Below, piece after piece: positions 1 to 39,331 of a stretch of 39,331 bases of DNA. The notes under the pieces are model-generated. The model ran no database searches, was not told the DNA's origin, and saw only the letters and a program-made list of their open reading frames with translations. The position numbers were made by a program, and so were the translations under genes. Positions within the stretch are counted from its first letter, which is position 1; each line of letters begins with the position of its first letter. The DNA comes from a virus (taxonomy: Duplodnaviria > Caudoviricetes), in the IMG/VR virus record IMGVR_UViG_3300007764_000003, positions 1 to 39,331 of that record; one strand, 5' to 3'.

Positions 1-780
1 ACGCATATCAAGGCCGAGCTGAGAGCGGGAGATGTGGTGGAGAAGATTCGCAGGGTGGAGAACGCTCATCGTCGCCATGAACCCACCGTCCAGAAAGAAG
101 ACCTCGCCGAGCTCGTCCGGATTCGGGCCGCCCGCATCGCTGCCGAGCCTGCCCCGCATCGAGAAGGCCCCGGTCGGCCGGTCACCCCCAAGGGCCAAGC
201 CGTCCGGGAGGTGGCCAAGGAGACGGGCTGGGCCCCGGAGACGGTCCGCAAGGCCATTCGCCCCGAAACCCCCAAGCCACCGCCCGGACGTCACCCTGAC
301 GAGCCCCCCAGGGAAGCGCCCACCCAGCCCGATCCACCGACCTACGGGCCGAAGGATGACACTGATCCGCGCCCAACCAGGGAGGGGACGCTCGTCACGT
401 TCGGGCTACGGCTTGAGGAGGACTTCGACATCGAGATAGCCGAGGTGAGGGAATACTTCGACCGAGTAGCCCAGGCCTTGGGGTCGACGCGGGCGGCCCT
501 GCGGAACCTCCTCGGCTGCGGCCACCCCGTGCCGGCGGACCGCATGGCCCAGTGGGGCGAAGAGCTGGCCACGCTGGCGGCCGAGGTGGCGCGCAGTAGG
601 CCCACCAGCCTCTGCCCGTACTGCAAGGTAGTGGAGGGCGTCATCGAGGGCTGCACGGGCTGTGAGGCCCGGGGGTGGGTCGGCAAGCATGTGCTTGAGA
701 GCGCTCCCAAGTCGCTGCTCGACGAGGATCCGATGTGGATCGTCGTCGGGGGCAAGAAAACCCAGTACCCGGAGGAGTGA
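1..780 (+). CDS. ParB-like/HTH DNA-binding protein with C-terminal Cys4 motif (5' truncated)
   Basis: Frame is open from base 1. 'RVENAHRRH' resembles the ParB 'EN..R' segment, followed by an HTH-like 'AVREVAKETGWAPETVRKAI' and CPYC...CTGC. Confidence 0.5.
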   Translation, partial: THIKAELRAGDVVEKIRRVENAHRRHEPTVQKEDLAELVRIRAARIAAEPAPHREGPGRPVTPKGQAVREVAKETGWAPETVRKAIRPETPKPPPGRHPDEPPREAPTQPDPPTYGPKDDTDPRPTREGTLVTFGLRLEEDFDIEIAEVREYFDRVAQALGSTRAALRNLLGCGHPVPADRMAQWGEELATLAAEVARSRPTSLCPYCKVVEGVIEGCTGCEARGWVGKHVLESAPKSLLDEDPMWIVVGGKKTQYPEE

Positions 781-783
781 GAG

Positions 784-837
784 ATGTCAGACAGTGACCG
801 CGTCTGGGTCAGCATTATCGGTCCGTCCCACAAATAG
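784..837 (+). CDS. 17-aa mini-ORF MSDSDRVWVSIIGPSHK
   Basis: GGAGGAG lies upstream of ATG 784. The ORF fills the gap before the helicase and contains one array-type unit (AGTGACCGCGTCTGG, 793-807). Confidence 0.25.
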   Translation: MSDSDRVWVSIIGPSHK

Positions 838-839
838 CC

Positions 840-2450
840 ATGCAGCTACGCGACTACCAGCAGGCGGCCATCGACGGAATTCATGAGGCATTCCGCGAAC
901 ATAGGTCCACCCTGCTACAGTTGCCCACCGGTACGGGTAAGTCGGTGGTGTTCGGTGACATGGCCGCGAAATGGAAGGGCTCGGTGCTCGTGCTGGCCCA
1001 CCGAAAGGAGCTCGTAAATCAGGGCCGGCAGCACCTATCACACATGTCGGGTGGCGAGTGGGTGGACGTCGAGATGGCCGATCGGCGTGCGTACAACGCC
1101 CGCATCGTGATGGCCTCGGTGCAGAGCGCCATGCAGCCCAAGCGGCTGCGCCGGCTGCAGCAGATGGGGTTCGATCTCATCATCGCTGATGAATCGCACC
1201 GTGCAGTGGCTAAGAGCTGGCGGAAGGTGCTCGACGCCTTCCCAGAGGCCAAGGTCCTGGGCGTCACTGCCACGCCGGACAGGGGCGACGGGGTGGCTCT
1301 GCGCAAGGTGTTTGAGTCGGTGGCCTACAAGCTGGACATCCTGCCGGCCATTGAGGCTGGTTGGCTGGTGGAGCCGGTGGTGGAACGGGTGTGGGTCGAC
1401 GAGGTCAACCTCGACAACGTCAAGCGGACGGCCGGTGACTTCCAGGTCCGCGACCTCGATGAGGAGATGCTCAAGGGCATCAAGGGGGTGTGCCACGAGA
1501 TCGCCAAGCGTGGTGGCGAGCGGCAGGGTATTCACTTCTTCCCGGGCGTAAAGAGCGCAGAGCAAGCCGCTGTCGAGCTGAACGAACTCCGGCCTGGATC
1601 AGCCCGCTGCATTCACGGCAAGACCCCAGAGGTCGAGCGTGACATGATGATTCGCGACTTCAAGCAAGGGCGCTTCCAGCATCTGAGCAACTGCGCCGTG
1701 CTCATCGAGGGCTTCGATGCGCCGCGGGTGAGCCTCATCAGCCAGGTTCGCCCCAGCAGCTCACGTTGCTTTGTGGCGCAATGCGTCGGACGAGGGTTGC
1801 GAGTGCTCAAGAACACGGTCGACCACCTGGCATCGCCGGAGGAGCGTCGGGCGGCCATCGCCGCAAGTGCGAAACCTGACTGTCTAATCCTTGACTTCGT
1901 GGGCAACAGCAAGCACGAACTCGTCAGTCCAGAGGACATCCTTGGTGGCCGCTACTCCGACCCTGTGGTGGCCGCGGCAAAGAAGAAGCAGCAGAAGGCC
2001 AGCGGCGAGCGGATCAACATCCTGCGAGTCCTGGCCGAGGCCCAGTCCGAGATGGAGCGCGCGGCGAAGGTCGCCGCCGAGGTCAAGAGTCGGTCGATTC
2101 GCATCGACCCCTTCAAGGCATTCAAGCTCAAGGAGAAGTCGCCCGAGTGGACCAAGCGCCATGGTGGCGGCAGGGAGCCATCCCGAAGGCAGCGCGACTA
2201 TCTAGAGAGGCAGGGCATCGACGTCAACGGCTATGATGCCGCAGCGGCCCAGCAGCTCATTGGCACCATCGAAACGAGGCGGAGGTTGGGACTGTCCGAC
2301 TATCGCCAGCAAGCTCAGCTACGGAAGTGGTGCAAGCCACCTACCAATTGCACGGCACCCAAGGCCGCGCAGGCCATTCGCTATGCCACAGGGGCCGAGA
2401 GAAGCGGCGCAGCGGTCAACAAGTACGTGCTGGAAAGGATGCTCAAGTGA
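840..2450 (+). CDS. Superfamily 2 DExH helicase (ResIII/Irc3/RadD-like)
   Basis: Q motif LRDYQ, Walker A LPTGTGKS, DESH, TATP, LIEGFDAP and motif VI QCVGRGLR. Confidence 0.92.
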   Translation: MQLRDYQQAAIDGIHEAFREHRSTLLQLPTGTGKSVVFGDMAAKWKGSVLVLAHRKELVNQGRQHLSHMSGGEWVDVEMADRRAYNARIVMASVQSAMQPKRLRRLQQMGFDLIIADESHRAVAKSWRKVLDAFPEAKVLGVTATPDRGDGVALRKVFESVAYKLDILPAIEAGWLVEPVVERVWVDEVNLDNVKRTAGDFQVRDLDEEMLKGIKGVCHEIAKRGGERQGIHFFPGVKSAEQAAVELNELRPGSARCIHGKTPEVERDMMIRDFKQGRFQHLSNCAVLIEGFDAPRVSLISQVRPSSSRCFVAQCVGRGLRVLKNTVDHLASPEERRAAIAASAKPDCLILDFVGNSKHELVSPEDILGGRYSDPVVAAAKKKQQKASGERINILRVLAEAQSEMERAAKVAAEVKSRSIRIDPFKAFKLKEKSPEWTKRHGGGREPSRRQRDYLERQGIDVNGYDAAAAQQLIGTIETRRRLGLSDYRQQAQLRKWCKPPTNCTAPKAAQAIRYATGAERSGAAVNKYVLERMLK

Positions 2451-2638
2451 AGAGACTTGACCGCGTCGGGGCCCGCGTCACTGCCCGCGTCAGGGCCCGC
2501 GTCAGTGCCCGCGTCACTGCCCGCGTCTGGGGCCGCGTCTGGGACCGCGTCAATGCCCGCGTCAGTGACCGCGTCAGTGACCACGTCTGGGACCGCGTCA
2601 ATGCCCGCGTCAGTGGCCGCGTCAGGAGGCTGCCATGA
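2447..2638 (+). CDS. Arg/Val tetrapeptide-repeat microprotein A1 (63 aa)
   Basis: GTGA overlap with the helicase stop; MKRLDRV(xxRV)n...RVRRLP. Confidence 0.7.
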   Translation: MKRLDRVGARVTARVRARVSARVTARVWGRVWDRVNARVSDRVSDHVWDRVNARVSGRVRRLP

Positions 2639-2793
2639 TGAAGAGACTTGACCGCGTCGGGGCCCGCGTCTGGTACCACGTCAGTGACCGCGTCAGTGCC
2701 CGCGTCAATGCCCGCGTCGGGGCCCGCGTCTGGGACCGCGTCAGTGCCCGCGTCTGGTACCACGTCTGGGACCGCGTCAGGAGGCTGCCATGA
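2635..2793 (+). CDS. Arg/Val repeat microprotein A2 (52 aa)
   Basis: AGGAGG SD plus ATGA overlap; MMKRLDRVGARVWYHV...DRVRRLP (below the ORF-track size cutoff). Confidence 0.75.
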   Translation: MMKRLDRVGARVWYHVSDRVSARVNARVGARVWDRVSARVWYHVWDRVRRLP

Positions 2794-2972
2794 TGAAGAG
2801 ACTTGACCGCGTCAATGCCAGCGTCAGTGTCCGCGTCAATGCCCGCGTCACTGCCCGCGTCACTGCCCGCGTCGGGGACCGCGTCAGGGCCCGCGTCTGG
2901 CGGCGCATCAGGTACCACGTCTGGCGGCGCGTCACTGCCCGCATCAGGGACCGCGTCAGGAGGCTGCCATGA
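2790..2972 (+). CDS. Arg/Val repeat microprotein A3 (60 aa)
   Basis: Same SD and ATGA coupling, same termini. Confidence 0.75.
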   Translation: MMKRLDRVNASVSVRVNARVTARVTARVGDRVRARVWRRIRYHVWRRVTARIRDRVRRLP

Positions 2973-3163
2973 TGAAGAGACTTGACCGCGTCGGGTACCG
3001 CGTCTGGGACCGCGTCAATGCCCGCGTCGGGTACCGCATCAGGGACCGCGTCATGGACCGCGTCTGGTGGCGCGTCTGGGCCCGCGTCGGGTACCGCATC
3101 AAGGACCGCGTCTGGGAACGCGTCTGGTGGCGCATCAGTGACCGCATCAGGAGGCTGCCATGA
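2969..3163 (+). CDS. Arg/Val repeat microprotein A4 (64 aa)
   Basis: Same SD and ATGA coupling, same termini. Confidence 0.75.
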   Translation: MMKRLDRVGYRVWDRVNARVGYRIRDRVMDRVWWRVWARVGYRIKDRVWERVWWRISDRIRRLP

Positions 3164-3456
3164 TGAAGAGACTTGCCCGCGTCAGTGCCCGCGTCAGTGA
3201 CCGCGTCGGGTACCGCGTCTGGGAACGCGTCGGGTACCGCATCAGGGACCGCGTCGGGGCCCGCGTCAGTGACCGCGTCGGGTACCGCGTCAGTGACCGC
3301 GTCATGGACCGCGTCGGGGCCCGCGTCTGGGACCGCGTCAGTGCCCGCATCAGGGCCCGCGTCTGGCGGCGCGTCACTGCCCGCGTCAGTGACCGCGTCA
3401 GTGACCGCGTCATGGACCGCGTCAGGTGGAGCGTCGATGCAGAGCGCGGAGCCTAG
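3160..3456 (+). CDS. Arg/Val repeat microprotein A5 (98 aa, unique C-terminal tail)
   Basis: Same SD and ATGA start. Its stop overlaps the convergent endolysin stop within CTAG 3453-3456. Confidence 0.7.
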   Translation: MMKRLARVSARVSDRVGYRVWERVGYRIRDRVGARVSDRVGYRVSDRVMDRVGARVWDRVSARIRARVWRRVTARVSDRVSDRVMDRVRWSVDAERGA

Positions 3457-3890
3457 GCACCGTCCTCTGGCCACCGACAGCCGATCAGGCGCTCCCGCGG
3501 ATACCATCTACATTGCACGCGGTTGCCCTGGTTGCCGCCGAGCAGCAACAGCCTGTCGGCGCCATAGTGCACGACAAACGCCACGTGGCCGCTGCCGGGG
3601 TTGGGCGGCCTCTTCAGCACCGCCACGGCGCCGTGCTGCAACTCCACATCCCGGCCCCATTCGAGCCAGCTACGCGCCGCCGCCGAGCCCGTGCCATCGA
3701 TTTCCACCGCACGCATGCAGAGGTTTGCGAACGCGCTGCACCATGGGGTTTCATCGCCACGCTTGCGCGCCATCCACGGCGCCACCTCGGCAATCATCTC
3801 GACCACGGTGCGGTTGTGCTTCGCGCCTGGGATTTCGGACAAGCCGTAATAGCTCCACGCGATCGGCATCCACGGGGGGAGAATGCTCAC
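3453..3890 (-). CDS. TIGR02594-family (CHAP/NlpC-like) peptidoglycan hydrolase, probable endolysin
   Basis: PPWM.IA...G.SEIPG..HN, DETPWCSAF, AARSWL.WG, SGHVAFV and LGGNQ motifs; GTGA-coupled start. Confidence 0.85.
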   Translation of the reverse strand: MSILPPWMPIAWSYYGLSEIPGAKHNRTVVEMIAEVAPWMARKRGDETPWCSAFANLCMRAVEIDGTGSAAARSWLEWGRDVELQHGAVAVLKRPPNPGSGHVAFVVHYGADRLLLLGGNQGNRVQCRWYPRERLIGCRWPEDGA

Positions 3891-4150
3891 CGTGCGCCCC
3901 CGGGAGGTGGCAGCCAAAAGACGCAGTCGAGCCTGATGCCAGACCCGCCCTTGTCGTCGGTCTCAATTTCCAGCGGATCGCAGTCCACTGCGTGCACGTC
4001 GTCCAGACCTTCCGCGTTGCGGATGTGTCGCTCCAAGACGGTGGCGATCAGCTGCAGTCCCTGCGGCACAACCGTCGGGGCTGCCTGCTCCCACAGCCCG
4101 CACCCACATGGCAGCAGCAGCGCTACCAGACATAGCTTTACACGCATCAT
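3887..4150 (-). CDS. Probable lipoprotein (o-spanin-like)
   Basis: Basic N-terminus, hydrophobic stretch and LLLPCGC lipobox-like Cys; position in lysis cassette; GGAGGAG SD. Confidence 0.45.
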   Translation of the reverse strand: MMRVKLCLVALLLPCGCGLWEQAAPTVVPQGLQLIATVLERHIRNAEGLDDVHAVDCDPLEIETDDKGGSGIRLDCVFWLPPPGGAR

Positions 4151-4543
4151 CTACTCCTCCTGTCGCCTAGCCCAGCGACGGCGGCGCGCGTCCGCCTCAT
4201 CCATTCGCCGATCCAGGTCGCCCACATCCTTCGCTGTCTCTCGGGAGATACCCCGAACCTCTGACAGCCCATCGCGTAGCCCGCTGACGCTAGACGTCAG
4301 CACGCGGTCCTTGTCATGTAGGCCGGCAAGCTCCTTACCGACCTTGGTGTCTAGCGCGTCGAGCTTCGACTCAATGCGCCCGAGCGCGTCTGTATCGCCC
4401 GACGCAAACATGCCCACGAAGCCGGGCACGGTCCCTCCGCCCGTCATCAGGGCTATCAGCCACGCCCACGGAGGCATGCCGCTCAACGGCCCCCAGCTGT
4501 CGCGCTTGGGGGCGGGGTTTGGGGGAATGATTTCGTCCGGCAT
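4151..4543 (-). CDS. Membrane protein with coiled coil (holin or i-spanin-like)
   Basis: One hydrophobic segment, heptad-like C-terminal region and basic tail; adjacent to the endolysin. Confidence 0.45.
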   Translation of the reverse strand: MPDEIIPPNPAPKRDSWGPLSGMPPWAWLIALMTGGGTVPGFVGMFASGDTDALGRIESKLDALDTKVGKELAGLHDKDRVLTSSVSGLRDGLSEVRGISRETAKDVGDLDRRMDEADARRRRWARRQEE

Positions 4544-29664: not shown

Positions 29665-30212
29665 CACATCTCTCCCTCCGGCCGCGGCCGCATGAAATGG
29701 TTCTTGGTTTCGCCGCAGTCCACTTCGACGGCGCGCGGGTTCTGCATGATGTAGCGCTTGCGGTCCTTGGCGTTGCCCCACGTGATGGGCTTGCCGTCGC
29801 ACACCCTTACGTCATGCTCGAGCACGTACCGGACGTGCCTGACGAGACGAAGCCACCCCCTCCGGTTCCGCCCGTGCCAAGGCAGGTGAGCATACCAGTG
29901 GCGTGGTTTGCGCCCATCCTCCCGCAGCCACGCTAGCCACGCCCGCCGGTCGGTGCGAGTGCGATCGAACACGCGGTCGCTGTGAGCCCGCATCACTTGG
30001 CGCAGCGTCTGGCCGCGACGCTCTGCACGGTTGCGTAGTGTCTCCGCGATGGCGGCGCACTCCCATTGCGCGGAGAACGTGCCTGCCTCCGACACGCATA
30101 CCTGGGCCAACTCGGGCGCCAAGCCAGGATCCTGCGCACATGCGCCTCGCGCCAACAGCCACAGCAGGCAGGTCAGGCACGCGAGGATGACGTGCATGGC
30201 ATGGCGGTTCAT
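29664..30212 (-). CDS. Secreted SleB/Hydrolase_2-like cell-wall hydrolase
   Basis: Signal peptide (..ARGACA-Q) then 'LAQVCVSEAG...AAIAETLRNR', resembling the SleB catalytic-Glu motif; ATGA-coupled to array B. Confidence 0.55.
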   Translation of the reverse strand: MNRHAMHVILACLTCLLWLLARGACAQDPGLAPELAQVCVSEAGTFSAQWECAAIAETLRNRAERRGQTLRQVMRAHSDRVFDRTRTDRRAWLAWLREDGRKPRHWYAHLPWHGRNRRGWLRLVRHVRYVLEHDVRVCDGKPITWGNAKDRKRYIMQNPRAVEVDCGETKNHFMRPRPEGEM

Positions 30213-30415
30213 AGCGGTCCCCTGACGTGGTACCAGACGCGGTCCCTGATGCGGGCACTGACGCGCCACCAGACGCGGTCACTGACGCGGTCACTGACGC
30301 GGTCATTGACGCGGGCAGTGACGCGCCGCCAGACGTGGTACCTGATGCGGGCCCAGACGCGGGCACTGATGCGGGCACTGACGCGGTCATTGACGCGGTC
30401 AAGTCTCTTCATCAT
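30209..30415 (-). CDS. Arg/Val repeat microprotein B3 (68 aa)
   Basis: SD plus ATGA start; stop is ATGA-coupled to the hydrolase. Confidence 0.75.
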   Translation of the reverse strand: MMKRLDRVNDRVSARISARVWARIRYHVWRRVTARVNDRVSDRVSDRVWWRVSARIRDRVWYHVRGPL

Positions 30416-30594
30416 GGCAGCCTCCTGACGCGGTCCCTGATGCGGGCACTGACGCGGGCCCAGACGCGGGCCCAGACGCGGTCCCTGATGCGGTACCCGA
30501 CGCGGTCACTGACGCGGGCAGTGACGCGGTCACTGACGCGGTCCCAGACGCGGTACCAGACGCGGTACCAGACGCGGTCAAGTCTCTTCATCAT
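30412..30594 (-). CDS. Arg/Val repeat microprotein B2 (60 aa)
   Basis: MMKRLDRV...RVRRLP, coupled at both ends. Confidence 0.75.
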   Translation of the reverse strand: MMKRLDRVWYRVWYRVWDRVSDRVTARVSDRVGYRIRDRVWARVWARVSARIRDRVRRLP

Positions 30595-30746
30595 GGCAGC
30601 CTCCTGACGCGGTCCCTGATGCGGGCACTGACGCGGGCCCAGACGCGGGCCCAGACGCGGGCCCCGACGCGGGCAGTGACGCGGGCCCCGACGCGGGCCC
30701 CGACGCGGGCAGTGACGCGCCGCCAGACGCGGTCAAGTCGCCTCAT
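30591..30746 (-). CDS. Arg/Val repeat microprotein B1 (51 aa)
   Basis: MRRLDRVWRRVTARV...DRVRRLP; ATGA overlap with the VRR-NUC stop. Confidence 0.7.
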   Translation of the reverse strand: MRRLDRVWRRVTARVGARVGARVTARVGARVWARVWARVSARIRDRVRRLP

Positions 30747-31081
30747 GCCATCGCCTTCCGCACGGCGGCCACTGCCGCCTTCACGCTGTCGACCGTGACC
30801 ACCGCGTGTCCAAGATCGAGAGCCTTATCGCGCCACTTCGTCTGCGCCTCTTCGGTGGGCGTCAGTTTGCGGTTACCGCTTGGGATCTTCCCAGGCGCCT
30901 TGACTTCCACCCACAACACGCGCCCACGGGGGAGCACAACGGCCCTGTCAGGCGTGCCGGGCGGGAGGCCCTTCATGCGGCTGCGGAAGCCTCCGGCGTT
31001 CAAGCGCAGCACGATGCAGCGACCACCGGTCGACGCAATGATAGCGGCCTCGATTGCCTTGCTGAGCCTCGTCTCGCTCAC
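30743..31081 (-). CDS. VRR-NUC domain nuclease
   Basis: PD-(D/E)xK pattern 'GTPD...WVEVKAPG...Q..W...GH.V.TV.SV'. Confidence 0.85.
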   Translation of the reverse strand: MSETRLSKAIEAAIIASTGGRCIVLRLNAGGFRSRMKGLPPGTPDRAVVLPRGRVLWVEVKAPGKIPSGNRKLTPTEEAQTKWRDKALDLGHAVVTVDSVKAAVAAVRKAMA

Positions 31082-31757: not shown

Positions 31758-32026
31758 CGTCGAGCCCCGCACTGGAACTCGATCTCCCGCGCGATGCGCT
31801 GGGCCAGCCCGTCCTCGCCCTCCCGCAGCACCAGGCACACGTACTTCCACACCCGCACGTGCATCATCACGATGGGCTCGCGCCTCGGAGCTGCACTCCA
31901 ATCGGTCTCCCCCGGCCGGTCAGGCTTGAGGGAGCGAACTCGGTCGGCCATGTGACCCACCAGCGCCCTCTCCCTCGCCACCTCGGCGTCGATCTGCTCC
32001 CGCGTCATCGTCATCTTCTTCTTCAT
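31754..32026 (-). CDS. Hypothetical protein (90 aa)
   Basis: Helical, coupled to the next ORF. Confidence 0.5.
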   Translation of the reverse strand: MKKKMTMTREQIDAEVARERALVGHMADRVRSLKPDRPGETDWSAAPRREPIVMMHVRVWKYVCLVLREGEDGLAQRIAREIEFQCGARR

Positions 32027-32139
32027 TACCGGTCCGTCCCAGAAATACTACCGGCCCCCTGGCGCGCGACCGACAAGGGGGGGGTAAGCGGCGCGCGCCA
32101 GAGAGCCGTAAACGTGTTGTACCATGACTCACGCGGGTG

Positions 32140-32607: not shown

Positions 32608-32965
32608 CTATCCGAGGCATGGGGCGCGAGTCCGGGGCGAAGCGACGCGACCGGGCAGACGGGTAACCGGACCCTGGGCGGAGCACCTATCCTCTACCGG
32701 CCGCGAAGTTTGCGGCACCCCTTGGCACGTTTTTGGCTAGGGGGGGTAGGGGGGGTTCGCTCGGCTCTGGGCTCCGGGAGGGGGGACTGGGGGATGGGCT
32801 TGGACGGAGGCGGGGCGCTGGACGGATAGGGGAGGCTGGCTTGGGGTGGGCCTTGACGATGTGTGCCAAAGAGGTCAGGCTCTGGGCTGCCTGTTGATTC
32901 ACACTGGCCAGGGCAAGGCCCGGCGGAGCCCTCCATCGTCACGCTACGTTGGGGGGCTTTGTCGT

Positions 32966-33121
32966 TCAGATGTTGCTGACGATGTTTGCGTCGGAGTAGA
33001 AATCCTCGGCGCTCACGATGCTGTCCAGCTCGTCCAGGATGGCGTTGTCGAGCAGGCACGAGCCCAACACCTCGCGCTCGGCCCGCAGGTCGTTCGGTGG
33101 GACGCGGGAGGCTTGCGTCAT
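32966..33121 (-). pseudogene. Truncated DnaB helicase N-terminal fragment (51 aa)
   Basis: 'RVPPNDLRAEREVLGSCLLDN...IVSAEDFYSDAN' matches the start of the DnaB N-terminal domain, then stops. Confidence 0.7.
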
Positions 33122-33819
33122 GGGCGGGCCTCGAACAGCTCGTCCTGCACGCGCTCGAAAACTGTGACTGCGCGGATCGGAAATCCAAAGCCCGTAGACA
33201 GGCCGAGCACGCGTACCAGGTGGCACGCCGGCGGGGGCATCGGCACCAGGTAGTGCACGATGGCGATCCGCCCGCAGGGCCGAACCACGCGCGCCGCCTC
33301 CCGCAATAGGTGGCTGGGACGCGGGTATTCGACACCGTAGATGTCCTGGGCGTACTGCGGCGTGTAGGGCGGGTCGAGCATGACAGCCGCCATCGATGCG
33401 TCGGGGAATGGCAACTCCCGACCGTCGGCGATGACGTCGGGCTTCGCCTCGATGCGAGCGTCGACGCGCAGCCCCTCGCCCGGAAGCAGAGACCCGGAGC
33501 ACACATGCAAGACGTCAGATCGCTTGCATCGCAGCCACGGCAAGACCTTGCCGATCAGGGCCGTTGGGTACTGGCCAAAGACGGCTTCAGGCAGGTCCTC
33601 GGGGTCGTTGAGGTCCTCGTAGAGCGCACAGATGACGGGTGGGCTTGGTTTCCGGCCATCTCGCGGGCGACGTGCTGGCATCCCGTTGCGGACGTTTCCG
33701 CCACGCTGGTGCATGACACGCTCAACCCCATCGGGGTCACGGCTACGGCTGCCGTGCAGGCTCGCCTTCGGGCGCGACCGCACGCGGCGTTCGGTGCCAT
33801 CTGGGTCTGGCCTGCTCAA
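33118..33819 (-). CDS. Amino-group (N6A/N4C) methyltransferase-like protein
   Basis: 'VLHVCSG', 'PDVIADGRELPFPDAS', DPPY and 'LREAARVVRP.G'; start is TTG 33819 (GAGGA SD, TTGA overlap) or ATG 33714. Confidence 0.75.
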   Translation of the reverse strand: MSRPDPDGTERRVRSRPKASLHGSRSRDPDGVERVMHQRGGNVRNGMPARRPRDGRKPSPPVICALYEDLNDPEDLPEAVFGQYPTALIGKVLPWLRCKRSDVLHVCSGSLLPGEGLRVDARIEAKPDVIADGRELPFPDASMAAVMLDPPYTPQYAQDIYGVEYPRPSHLLREAARVVRPCGRIAIVHYLVPMPPPACHLVRVLGLSTGFGFPIRAVTVFERVQDELFEARP

Positions 33820-36037: not shown

Positions 36038-36350
36038 GTTATCGGTGTGCTGTTACAGCGCCACTGCGCGCCGTAGCCCCGTTCAGCGTCTCAGGGCGAG
36101 CCAGCGCCGCGAGCAGCGCCGCGTACCGGCTGTACCGGTTGTGGGGGCTGGAGGTGAGGCTCTCCTCCTCCCTCTGGGCGCCTCCCTCCGCTGCGCTCCG
36201 GGCCGGGCCCTACTCGCTCCGCTCCCTGAGCCCCTGCGGGTCTCCGCCCATTCGGGTGACGGTCCCTGGCGCTCTCCACTGCCCACACCTACATGTCACA
36301 CCTAATTAGCGGGCCGTCCCAATAATCGACAGGTTTGTGTGCTGGCTCAC

Positions 36351-36427: not shown

Positions 36428-36718
36428 ATGGACACGATCAACAAGTTCCCTGGACGCCTGGAAACTCGCGCTTGGCGCACCGTGCCCGCCGGCCACCGCG
36501 CCGCGGTCGCGGACCTCATGCGCGTGCACAGGATGAGCCCGAAGGCCGCAGCGAGCGTGATCGGTGATGCGCTCACCTACCTCGCCACCCCCGACGGCGG
36601 ATGGCCGGAGACGGCGCAGGCGTGGCGCCGGATGGACGCAGAGTATCGCGATGCGGCCATCGCGGCCGTGCGACGGCATCTGCCCGGGAGCCAGCACGGC
36701 AGCCGGGTGCAGTCATGA
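36428..36718 (+). CDS. Hypothetical protein (96 aa)
   Basis: GGAGG SD; ATGA-coupled to the next gene. Confidence 0.65.
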   Translation: MDTINKFPGRLETRAWRTVPAGHRAAVADLMRVHRMSPKAAASVIGDALTYLATPDGGWPETAQAWRRMDAEYRDAAIAAVRRHLPGSQHGSRVQS

Positions 36719-37398
36719 GCACCTGCCAAATCATACGCCGCTGGGACAACGGCGACATCATCTACACCGGCGAGCACGCCGACCTGCTCGAGGCCGTGGA
36801 GCACTGCGCGCGGTCAGGCGTCTCGCTGTACCGCGCCTACCTGCGCAGGGCCGGAATGTACGAGGCCAGCCTGATCGGGGCCGACCTACGCGAGGCCGAC
36901 CTGCGCGGAGCCGACCTGCGCGGAGCCATCCTGATCGGGGCCGACCTGGGCGGAGCCGACCTGCGCCAGGCCGACCTGAGCGATGCCATCCTGCGCAAGG
37001 TCGACCTGAGCGAGGCCGACCTGGACGGAGCCGACCTGGACGGAGCCGACCTGGACGGAGCCGACCTGAGCGAGGCCGACCTACGCGATGCCATGGGTCT
37101 ATCCGACGCGCCCGCGATTCCGCAGCTGGAGTCAGCCATCCTGGCGGCCATCCTGGCGGGTGGTGAGCTGCGCATGGGTGACTGGCACACGTGCGACACC
37201 ACGCATTGCCGCGCTGGCTGGGCTATCACGCTCGCGGGCGAAGCCGGGGCGAAACTGGAGCGCGAGCACGGCCCCGCCGTCGCTGGCGCGCTCATCTATC
37301 ACGCGTCATGTGGATACGTGCCAGATTTCTACGCGCCCGATGGTGCCGCGCTCGAAGACATGCGGGCGCGGGCAGAGGGGGAGGTGCAGTCATCATGA
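36715..37398 (+). CDS. Pentapeptide-repeat protein 1 with C-terminal His/Cys domain
   Basis: A(D/N)Lxx repeats; 'WHTCDTTHCRAGW'. Confidence 0.9.
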   Translation: MSTCQIIRRWDNGDIIYTGEHADLLEAVEHCARSGVSLYRAYLRRAGMYEASLIGADLREADLRGADLRGAILIGADLGGADLRQADLSDAILRKVDLSEADLDGADLDGADLDGADLSEADLRDAMGLSDAPAIPQLESAILAAILAGGELRMGDWHTCDTTHCRAGWAITLAGEAGAKLEREHGPAVAGALIYHASCGYVPDFYAPDGAALEDMRARAEGEVQSS

Positions 37399-38210: not shown

Positions 38211-38588
38211 ATGAGCAACCAAACCATACGCCGCTGGGACAACGGCGCCATCATCTACACCGGAGAGCACGCTACGCTATGCGAGGCCGTGGAGCACTGC
38301 GCGCGGTCAGGCGTCTCGCTACGCAGGGCCGACCTACGCGTAGCCGACCTGGACGGAGCCGACCTACGCGGAGCCGACCTGCGCGAGGCCAGCCTGGACG
38401 GAGCCAGCCTGCGCGGGGCGGACATGTACGGGGCCGACCTACGCGAGGCCGACCTACGCGAGGCCGACCTGTTCGAGGCCGACCTGGACGGAGCCGACCT
38501 GCGCCAGGCCGACCTGAGCGAGGCCATCCTGGACGGAGCCAGCCTGCGCGGGGCGGACATGTACGAGGCCATGGGCCTGGCCGACTGA
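38211..38588 (+). CDS. Pentapeptide-repeat protein 2 (no C-terminal domain)
   Basis: GGAGG SD; MSNQTIRRWD... followed by ADLxx repeats; stops after AMGLAD. Confidence 0.88.
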   Translation: MSNQTIRRWDNGAIIYTGEHATLCEAVEHCARSGVSLRRADLRVADLDGADLRGADLREASLDGASLRGADMYGADLREADLREADLFEADLDGADLRQADLSEAILDGASLRGADMYEAMGLAD

Positions 38589-38666
38589 AGCCTGATCTCA
38601 GCCCCTAGAGCACCGGCCCGCCGGCGCTCCTGGGCATGCGACTTGGCGCATGAAAGGAGAGTGAAA

Positions 38667-38872: not shown

Positions 38873-39331
38873 ATGAGCAACCAAACCATACGCCGCTGGG
38901 ATACCCGCGCGGTCATCTACACCGGAGAGCACGCCGACCTATGCGGCGCAGTCGAGCACTGCGCGCGGTCAGGCGTCTCGCTGTACCGCGCCGACCTGAA
39001 CGAGGCCAACCTGATCGGGGCCGCCCTGCGCGGGGCGGACATGTACGAGGCCAACCTGAACGAGGCCAACCTGAACGGGGCCGACCTGAACGAGGCCATC
39101 CTGACCTGGGCCAGCCTGCGCGAGGCCGACCTGCGCGAGGCCGACCTGCGTAGGGCCAACCTGATCGGGGCCAAGCTACGCGGGGCCGACCTACGCGATG
39201 CCATGGGCCTACCCGACGCGCCCGCGATTCCGCAGCTGGAGTCAGCCATCCTGGCGGCCATCCTGGCGGGTGGTGAGCTGCGCATGGGTGACTGGCACAC
39301 GTGCGACACCACGCATTGCCGCGCTGGCTGG
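38873..39331 (+). CDS. Pentapeptide-repeat protein 3 (3' truncated)
   Basis: Frame open to the window end; same N-terminus and His/Cys domain as paralogue 1; alternative GTG start at 38858. Confidence 0.88.
   Translation, partial: MSNQTIRRWDTRAVIYTGEHADLCGAVEHCARSGVSLYRADLNEANLIGAALRGADMYEANLNEANLNGADLNEAILTWASLREADLREADLRRANLIGAKLRGADLRDAMGLPDAPAIPQLESAILAAILAGGELRMGDWHTCDTTHCRAGW

What the first reader, a model, noticed from the sequence alone, without database searches (positions are those of the whole stretch)
2447..3456. Cassette array of hypervariable, translationally coupled Arg/Val microproteins
Seen: five consecutive microgenes (52-98 aa) made of 12-nt units encoding x-R-V-x. Position 1 is mainly D/A/Y/R/W/G/E and position 4 is W/S/R/N/T/G/M/K. 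They are joined by an identical 29-nt junction that encodes the C-terminal RRLP, provides the AGGAGG SD through its two Arg codons, and contains the ATGA stop/start and the next MMKRL. Junction spacings (155, 179, 191) are all 12n-1, so length changes never break the frame. No two genes have the same unit order. The first gene is GTGA-coupled to the helicase. Inference: a self-expanding combinatorial library of cationic peptides, diversified by slippage or unequal recombination. Possible roles are nucleic-acid binding/condensation, membrane activity or counter-defence. I cannot assign it to a described system.
Basis: partly seen in the sequence, partly recalled or inferred. Interest (0 to 1): 0.92.

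Follow-up and report, generated by a model that had tools for sequence, protein, structure and literature searches.

The report
Stand-alone DUF6745 repeat microgenes in phage
An uncultured phage carries thirteen tiny genes built from a shuffled four-amino-acid repeat that other phages keep inside one unstudied protein (DUF6745); its own DUF6745 lacks the repeat, so the peptides likely serve as swappable variable parts for it.

Summary
Observation confirmed and extended. Five coupled ORFs (52-98 aa) of x-R-V-x units with an identical 29-nt junction lie at 2447-3456. A second, missed array of three lies at 30746-30209 (-). Overlapping contigs L009 and L004 continue the phage with five more, around a DUF6745 gene that lacks the tetrapeptide tract its homologues carry. 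The microproteins' best database hits are those tracts (33 of the top 60 are DUF6745 proteins). Stand-alone copies occur in 5 of 6 other repeat-less phages (one decayed) and 0 of 5 tract-bearing ones. That is a single lineage contrast, and G002 and Ma-LMM01 have neither. All 18 variant codons change the amino acid, units exchange at a constant hexamer, and unit order differs in near-identical strains. Best reading: an externalised, recombination-shuffled variable module that likely works with DUF6745 in trans (0.5), like Tweety gp54's tunable repeat. Binding, translation and target are untested. I found no description in print; this scan noted the arrangement before in at least 8 other genomes. 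New variant of a known kind; interest 0.6.

The parts
2447..2638 (+). Microgene A1, 63 aa, 14 units, GTG start overlapping the helicase stop (GTGA)
2635..2793 (+). Microgene A2, 52 aa, 11 units
2790..2972 (+). Microgene A3, 60 aa, 13 units
2969..3163 (+). Microgene A4, 64 aa, 14 units; modelled as one long helix (pLDDT 84, pTM 0.36)
3160..3456 (+). Microgene A5, 98 aa, 22 units; its stop overlaps the stop of the convergent CHAP-like lysin gene
2622..2650 (+). 29-nt junction 1 (C-terminal RRLP, AGGAGG, ATGA, MMKRL)
2777..2805 (+). 29-nt junction 2
2956..2984 (+). 29-nt junction 3
3147..3175 (+). 29-nt junction 4
30591..30746 (-). Microgene B1, 51 aa, 11 units, ATGA-coupled to the VRR-NUC-like gene
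30412..30594 (-). Microgene B2, 60 aa, 13 units; same 29-nt junction at 30607-30579
30209..30415 (-). Microgene B3, 68 aa, 15 units; junction at 30428-30400; ATGA-coupled to the next gene
840..2450 (+). Superfamily-2 helicase (ResIII/DEAD/Helicase_C; phrog_16): context, array A is coupled to it
30743..31081 (-). VRR-NUC-like endonuclease (phrog_93 E 6e-12; Pfam hit below cut-off): context, array B is coupled to it
784..837 (+). 17-aa mini-ORF with an SD and one DRVW unit in front of the helicase; possible decayed microgene (uncertain)

Best explanation
The arrays are free-standing genes for the four-residue repeat that other phages carry inside DUF6745 proteins, shuffled most likely by recombination at a constant hexamer, and their products likely bind this phage's repeat-less DUF6745 in trans as interchangeable variable arms. 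Step by step. (1) Shown: 13 microgenes in five places, each coupled to or beside a replication/recombination gene or the DUF6745 gene, with a junction that carries its own SD and overlapping stop/start, so a duplicated cassette would be translated without further change. (2) Shown at sequence level: the DNA word that varies is the hexamer (codon 4 + next codon 1) between constant CGCGTC cores; tracts are shared between distant arrays; anchored units differ between near-identical strains. Inferred: slippage and short-patch recombination, plausibly by the phage's own ERF annealing protein and exonuclease. (3) Shown: the phage's DUF6745 has a short loop (about residues 71-81 in the model) where homologues have the tract. 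(4) Inferred, untested: the constant start (M-K-R-L-D) docks on DUF6745 and the variable stretch faces a host target. (5) By analogy only: the target is a host defence or other host component, and variation tunes specificity, as repeat number does in Tweety gp54.
For: Homology: 369 proteins at E<=0.001 for A5; 33 of the top 60 carry DUF6745 (31 over the cut-off); 85 of 150 hit a profile of the repeat-less form, many split into positions about 2-80 and 82 onwards around the tract. Alphabet of 1,074 fused units D/A/N/S-Q/K-V-R/G/W against A/D/Y-R-V-W/S/R/G here (partly circular, since hits were chosen by likeness). Linkage: L004 953-1828 is DUF6745 (50.1 bits, cut-off 27) without a tract, with microgene D just upstream and E1 GTGA-coupled to its stop. 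L009 matches the window's last 2,095 nt and L004's first 284 nt at 100%; a 4,776-nt contig of run X3 lies on L004's end and the window's start. Distribution: stand-alone copies in G001, G003, G005, G006 and (decayed, E 0.001) G004, i.e. 5 of 6 repeat-less phages, directly after DUF6745 in four; none outside the DUF gene in 5 of 5 tract-bearing contigs scanned whole. Same cassette design with other junctions in G003 and G007. Similar starts: MRLDSV, VTRLGSV, MKQLG, VKRLGG. Protein-level constraint: G003 codes Val as GTG in 68 of 72 units; G006 core mismatches per position are 9,6,13,8,2,16. Diversification: 22 codon states = 22 residue states in 158 units, crude P 0.018; MI excess 0.37 bits within the hexamer against 0.08 across the core; a 27-nt copy of B3's tail behind gene D ends at a core-like CACGTC; MDRV here against WARI in X2 and X3, whose flanks differ at only 2 and 4 sites in about 1.75 kb; an X3 contig anchored in DUF6745 reaches the junction after 4 units against 15 here. 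Precedent: PMC2884959, PMC9262239.
Against: The 7 repeat-less proteins in the tree form one clade (99/99), so the complementary distribution is one contrast, not several. Repeat-less DUF6745 without detectable microgenes exists: G002 (167 kb, 87% complete) and Ma-LMM01 gp174 (whole genome). The nearest tract-bearing relatives have xAAT tracts, not xRVx or xQVx. 8 of 13 genes lie away from DUF6745, coupled to a helicase and a nuclease, and 2 more follow ERF. Gln>Arg makes them strongly cationic (+7 to +18), unlike the fused Gln tracts, which fits a role of their own. The G006 genes lack the K/R-L-D/G start. G007's core mismatches show no clear third-position excess (16,8,14,10,10,14). One copy (C2) has a 1-nt deletion in its assembly, unresolved. 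DUF6745 has no known function or solved relative, so the last step rests on analogy.
Confidence: 0.5

Rival explanations
1. The peptides descend from the DUF6745 tract but now act alone as Arg-rich nucleic-acid-binding or condensing peptides (or membrane-active ones) that accompany replication and recombination.
For: Net charge +7 to +18, 20-33% Arg, 2-7 Trp. Arrays are coupled to helicase, VRR-NUC, ERF and exonuclease genes. Amphipathic at both helix and strand periodicity.
Against: General DNA binding does not need 13 different versions with amino-acid-changing variation only. Microgenes track a repeat-less DUF6745 and often abut it. No signal for export was seen in the sequences (by eye).
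Confidence: 0.2
2. A self-copying, nearly neutral cassette: once the tract gained an SD and an overlapping stop/start it could duplicate inside operons without cutting translation of the downstream genes, and the peptides do little.
For: The junction makes each copy self-sufficient. Decayed copies in G004 and at 784-837. Some DUF6745 phages do without any repeat. PMC2884959 presumes gp54 non-essential.
Against: No synonymous variant among 18 variant codons. R-V is kept through synonymous change in G003 and G006. 12 of 13 copies are intact and in frame.
Confidence: 0.17
3. The function lies in the DNA: periodic CGCGTC cores as protein-binding, decoy or recombination sites, with the ORFs incidental.
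For: The core hexamer is almost invariant here, with one codon per residue. Arrays A and B are inverted relative to each other and could recombine.
Against: The core DNA differs in G003 (CGCGTG) and drifts at third positions in G006 while R-V stays. Every array has an SD, start and stop in the R-V frame and follows the direction of its operon. The same repeat is protein-coding inside DUF6745.
Confidence: 0.07
4. The variation is made by a diversity-generating retroelement (adenine mutagenesis), or the unit order is an assembly artefact.
For: Variation falls on first and second codon positions as in DGR targets. No contig spans the array.
Against: No reverse transcriptase in the window or among the L004/L009 ORFs scanned. 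Unit position 1 is never A. Difference-free pieces and anchored ends occur in run X1, and the same architecture in other runs and phages.
Confidence: 0.06

Closest known systems
DUF6745 (Pfam PF20530; phrog_31813) phage proteins with an internal tetrapeptide tract
   Same: Same repeat pattern, [D/A]-x-V-[W/G/R], about 8-69 units long in the homologues measured. The phage encodes a DUF6745 and its conserved upstream partner gene.
   Different: Here the tract is absent from DUF6745 and coded by 13 separate genes, and position 2 is Arg, not Gln/Lys. The microgenes have no DUF6745 domain. The family has no function, and no paper names it in the library searched.
Mycobacteriophage Tweety gp54 (PMC2884959, passages read; PMC9262239, one passage read)
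   Same: 12-bp unit, six invariant bases, invariant third codon positions, two variable residues, variable copy number; the authors read it as selection for variation. Repeat number tunes counter-defence against Phrann gp29/gp30 according to the review.
   Different: gp54 is one protein with unique N- and C-terminal parts around Ala-Ala-x-x repeats. No sequence homology was shown here (one search gave one weak mycobacterial prophage hit, not Tweety). No stand-alone cassettes.
Bordetella phage BMP-1 bbp36 VR2 (as described in PMC2884959 only)
   Same: Phage gene with a short repeat of constant and variable parts and isolate-specific copy number.
   Different: 24-bp unit inside one gene; no coupled microgenes.
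Diversity-generating retroelements (recalled)
   Same: Amino-acid-changing variation at first and second codon positions.
   Different: No reverse transcriptase, no template repeat seen, and variation is in the order and number of units.

Membership tests
DUF6745 (PF20530): the microgenes | Match to PF20530 above the curated cut-off | tested here: not met
   No PF20530 hit for the 8 window microgenes at E<=0.1
DUF6745 (PF20530): gene at L004 953-1828 | Match to PF20530 above the curated cut-off | tested here: met
   50.1 bits against 27; phrog_31813 E 6e-7
DUF6745 internal tetrapeptide tract | Period-4 repeat [D/A]-x-[V/I]-[W/G/R] | tested here: met
   position 2 differs (Arg against Gln/Lys)
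DUF6745 internal tetrapeptide tract | Tract lies inside the DUF6745 ORF, after the N-terminal 75 residues or so | tested here: not met
   This phage's DUF6745 has an 11-residue loop there
DUF6745 module acting in trans | Physical binding of microprotein to DUF6745 | not tested
Tweety gp54-type tunable repeat protein | 12-bp unit with six near-invariant bases and variation at first and second codon positions only | tested here: met
   against PMC2884959
Tweety gp54-type tunable repeat protein | Unique N- and C-terminal domains flanking Ala-Ala-x-x repeats in one ORF | tested here: not met
   Microgenes are repeat only, with an Arg-Val core; tblastn of A5 in phages did not list Tweety
Tweety gp54-type tunable repeat protein | Counter-defence activity tuned by repeat number | not testable with these tools
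   Needs a host and a defence panel
Diversity-generating retroelement | Reverse transcriptase gene | tested here: not met
   PF00078 not found in G000; none among the L004/L009 ORFs scanned; an RT supplied by the host is not excluded
Diversity-generating retroelement | Invariant template repeat differing from targets at adenines | tested here: inconclusive
   No separate template seen; base counts fit poorly; no formal TR/VR search

The most novel reading that the evidence does not exclude
A split phage adaptor system: one DUF6745 core (with its small partner) is loaded with any of a dozen co-expressed variable peptides from self-translating cassettes, reshuffled by the phage's own recombinase at a constant hexamer. 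This would give each infection a repertoire of specificities against host defences without a reverse transcriptase, a phage counterpart of an interchangeable variable chain.
Probability: 0.3. Interest if true: 0.85.

Novelty: new variant of a known kind. Interest (0 to 1): 0.6.

Why it matters
DUF6745 and its tetrapeptide tracts are common in phage metagenomes and have no assigned function; the one tetrapeptide-repeat phage protein with a phenotype (Tweety gp54) is a tunable counter-defence. A natural split into a constant core and a dozen short variable peptides makes the role of the tract directly testable: each peptide can be made, swapped and assayed against one core. If they work in trans, it is a way of diversifying phage proteins that differs from DGRs, invertible tail fibres and repeat-number phase variation. 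Practically, such arrays are easily mis-called in the antisense (PDAG) or +1 (PASG) frame.

Tried and rejected
No relatives by direct routes: the junction in viral contigs gave 0; the word-indexed protein search with A4 gave 0; A5 and the single DUF6745 protein in viral contigs gave 0; the ESM Atlas gave only unnamed viral clusters under 0.9 for A4. Of the 9 rows of the metagenome junction scan, 3 were the window's own record, 3 rows were L004 (listed twice) and L009, and 3 (L003, L006, L007) were chance SD matches without repeats. Of 48 genome-contig loci for the repeat pattern, only L052 is a microgene behind DUF6745; the rest are mostly Pro/Ala-rich or low-complexity tracts read in other frames, judged by eye. 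Alternative frames (PASG in +1, PDAG antisense) are open within genes and absorb part of the variation as synonymous; rejected because SD, starts, stops and operon coupling all fit the R-V frame, and because. No DUF6745 or partner gene inside the window. Fold searches for DUF6745: only its own family in BFVD (2 hits at E<=0.001); best Z 4.4 among 48,161 solved chains, no conclusion. The microprotein helix model has pTM 0.36, and the hydrophobic moment is higher at 180 degrees than at 90-100, so the fold is open. No RNA holder listed, which is no evidence on expression. No sigma-70-like promoter at 1-4300. Longest shared unit runs between genes are only slightly above shuffles (1.36 against 1.21, maximum 1.38 in 200). 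Host not determined. Paper searches without a description of the arrangement: (5 of 8 searches; others were for Tweety, Ma-LMM01 and VR2). The primary Tweety counter-defence paper was not held. CRISPR-like reading rejected: the stretches between junctions are themselves repeats in open frames.
Full report
Setting. The window is a whole 39,331-nt virus record, 83% complete by CheckV. It is a tailed phage with terminase, portal-like, tail and lysin genes on the minus strand and replication genes on the plus strand. The host was not determined.

Observation. The 12n-1 rule is arithmetic rather than separate evidence. Runs of the core hexamer at 12-nt spacing occur only in the microgenes.

The rest of the phage. 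A junction scan found two further contigs. L009 is identical to the window's last 2,095 nt and runs on; its other end is identical over 284 nt to the start of L004. A 4,776-nt contig of run X3, recognised by equal length and depth, lies on L004's end and on the window's start and leaves about 56 nt between them. The genome is thus likely about 45.6 kb and circularly closed. The added part holds ERF, microgenes C1 and C2, a 100-aa partner gene, microgene D, a DUF6745 gene (50.1 bits against a cut-off of 27), microgenes E1 (GTGA-coupled to DUF6745) and E2, and an exonuclease-like gene. That makes 13 microgenes in five places. C2 carries a 1-nt deletion in its assembly, which one search did not resolve.

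What the repeat is. A full phmmer search with A5 gave 369 proteins at E<=0.001. Of the top 60, 33 carry DUF6745 (31 over the cut-off), and 85 of the 150 listed hit a profile built from repeat-less forms, many in two pieces around a long tract. In 31 of these proteins, 1,074 units read D40/A25/N12/S11 - Q79/K10 - V94 - R24/G24/W23 (percent); the microgenes read A39/D34/Y13 - R92 - V87/I13 - W25/S22/R20/G15. The likeness is partly circular, because hits were picked by similarity, but the enrichment for DUF6745 is not. This phage's DUF6745 has no tract. Its model (pLDDT 93.9) has a loop at 71-81 where homologues have it. It resembles only its own family among viral models and nothing clearly among solved chains (best Z 4.4).

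Distribution. A profile search gave 19 DUF6745 loci. Seven are full-length and repeat-less (6 distinct phages); the others carry xAAT or Ala-rich tracts or are cut by contig ends. On whole contigs, stand-alone xRVx genes occur in G001 (1), G003 (8 profile matches), G005 (2), G006 (5 genes) and, decayed, G004; none in G002. In five tract-bearing contigs scanned whole without regard to frame (G009-G012, G014) no array lay outside the DUF6745 gene; three more (G008, G013, G015) were searched with the profile only, and G013's one match likely reads its own tract antisense. G003 and G007 repeat the design with other constant junctions that again hold an SD and GTGA; G007 is 16% complete and shows no DUF6745. 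L052, found through the repeat, has a repeat-less DUF6745 with a coupled microgene. The partner gene stands upstream in 12 of 19 loci; the other 7 are cut there. Against the reading: the repeat-less forms are one clade (99/99), sister to xAAT-bearing rather than xQVx-bearing forms, and Ma-LMM01 gp174, an independent tract-less form, has no 12-nt array in its genome. DUF6745 can therefore exist without the repeat.

Coding and diversification. In 158 units of 12 intact genes each residue at each position has one codon: 22 codons, 22 residues, no synonymous variant (crude P 0.018; homogenisation and few mutational origins weaken this). That the protein and not the DNA core is kept shows in relatives: G003 uses GTG for Val in 68 of 72 units, and G006 drifts mostly at third positions; G007 is unclear. 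Codon 4 and the next codon 1 travel together (excess MI 0.37 bits) much more than codons across the core (0.08 bits), so the exchanged word is one of 22 hexamers (4.1 bits) between cores. Genes of different arrays share 38-39-nt runs, and D is followed by a 27-nt copy of B3's tail that ends at CACGTC, which points to exchange between arrays. Runs X2 and X3 of another study hold the phage with 2 and 4 differences in about 1.75 kb of flank but 4 differences in the last two anchored units of A5. One X3 contig reaches the junction four units after DUF6745, where E1 has 15; contigs in repeats can be mis-joined. No reverse transcriptase was found.

Mechanism. Shown: cassettes that carry their own translation signals, homology to the DUF6745 tract, linkage to a tract-less DUF6745, and unit-level variation. 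Inferred: translation, shuffling by the phage's ERF and exonuclease, and docking through the shared start (MKRLD here; MRLDSV, VTRLGSV, MKQLG and VKRLGG elsewhere; absent in G006). By analogy only: a host-facing, tunable role. I put 0.5 on the trans-module reading, 0.2 on independent cationic peptides (+7 to +18), 0.17 on a near-neutral cassette, 0.07 on a DNA-level role and 0.06 on DGR or artefact. The microprotein model is a single helix with low global confidence, and strand periodicity is as compatible.

Literature. PMC2884959 (passages read; supplementary tables S1-S2 not read) describes Tweety gp54: a 12-bp unit, six invariant bases, invariant third positions, 15-48 copies. PMC9262239 (one passage) reports that repeat number in gp54 tunes escape from Phrann gp29/gp30; I did not see the primary paper. 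PMC5780444 (passages) classes the flanking Ma-LMM01 genes gp173 and gp178 as middle genes; gp174 is not named in the main text and its supplement was not read. Searches found no paper on DUF6745 or on stand-alone tetrapeptide microgenes; subscription journals and bioRxiv supplements are outside these searches.

Earlier scan notes. I stated the DUF6745 reading before the look-up. Eight notes describe the same arrangement in other genomes, several with docking models that I could not check; they are not counted as support. No notes exist for this genome or this DUF6745 sequence.

Verdict. Real, coding by all sequence signs, and a new variant of a known kind: not a DUF6745 member itself, but its tract set free as a library. 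This case is an Arg-type, cationic version with exact junctions and strain-level evidence of shuffling. Interest 0.6.

Noticed in passing
window 813-836, 32024-32047, 36304-36327: A 24-nt motif (core GGxCCGTCCCA) recurs three times at operon starts, in differing orientation to the genes (family D19); possible operator or promoter.
   Followed up: no
window 36577-37166, about 38250-38600, 38908-39331 and on in L009: Three paralogous pentapeptide-repeat genes with a shared N-terminal domain (PF00805 for the first; translations); the contig breaks at a duplicated C-terminal part.
   Followed up: partly
window 784-837 (+): 17-aa ORF with a strong SD and one DRVW unit between the ParB-like gene and the helicase; possibly a decayed microgene.
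   Followed up: partly
window 2447-3456 (+) and 30209-30746 (-): Arrays A and B are inverted repeats of about 79% identity flanking the 27-kb late region; recombination between them would invert it. Not looked for in reads.
   Followed up: no
L102 2003-2800; L095 16943-17589: The xAAT tracts of the sister clade read antisense as S/A-R-V-A, and the xRVx arrays read antisense as T/P-D-A-x. It may be codon symmetry or an old inversion.
   Followed up: no
L004 460-762: Small partner protein always upstream of DUF6745 (RQGD...G-H-x-H motif, also in Ma-LMM01 gp175 by eye); no Pfam family; unnamed viral clusters in the ESM Atlas.
   Followed up: partly
L004 3221-4451: This 1.2-kb accessory stretch is replaced by 995 other bases in run X3.
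   Followed up: no
window 32900-33150 (-): A short ORF resembling the start of a DnaB-type helicase (recalled motif) ends abruptly before a non-coding stretch; it looks truncated.
   Followed up: no
L110 3194-4471: DUF6745 in MW202476 has an xSSL tract with the same W/G/R/E variation, a further repeat class.
   Followed up: partly
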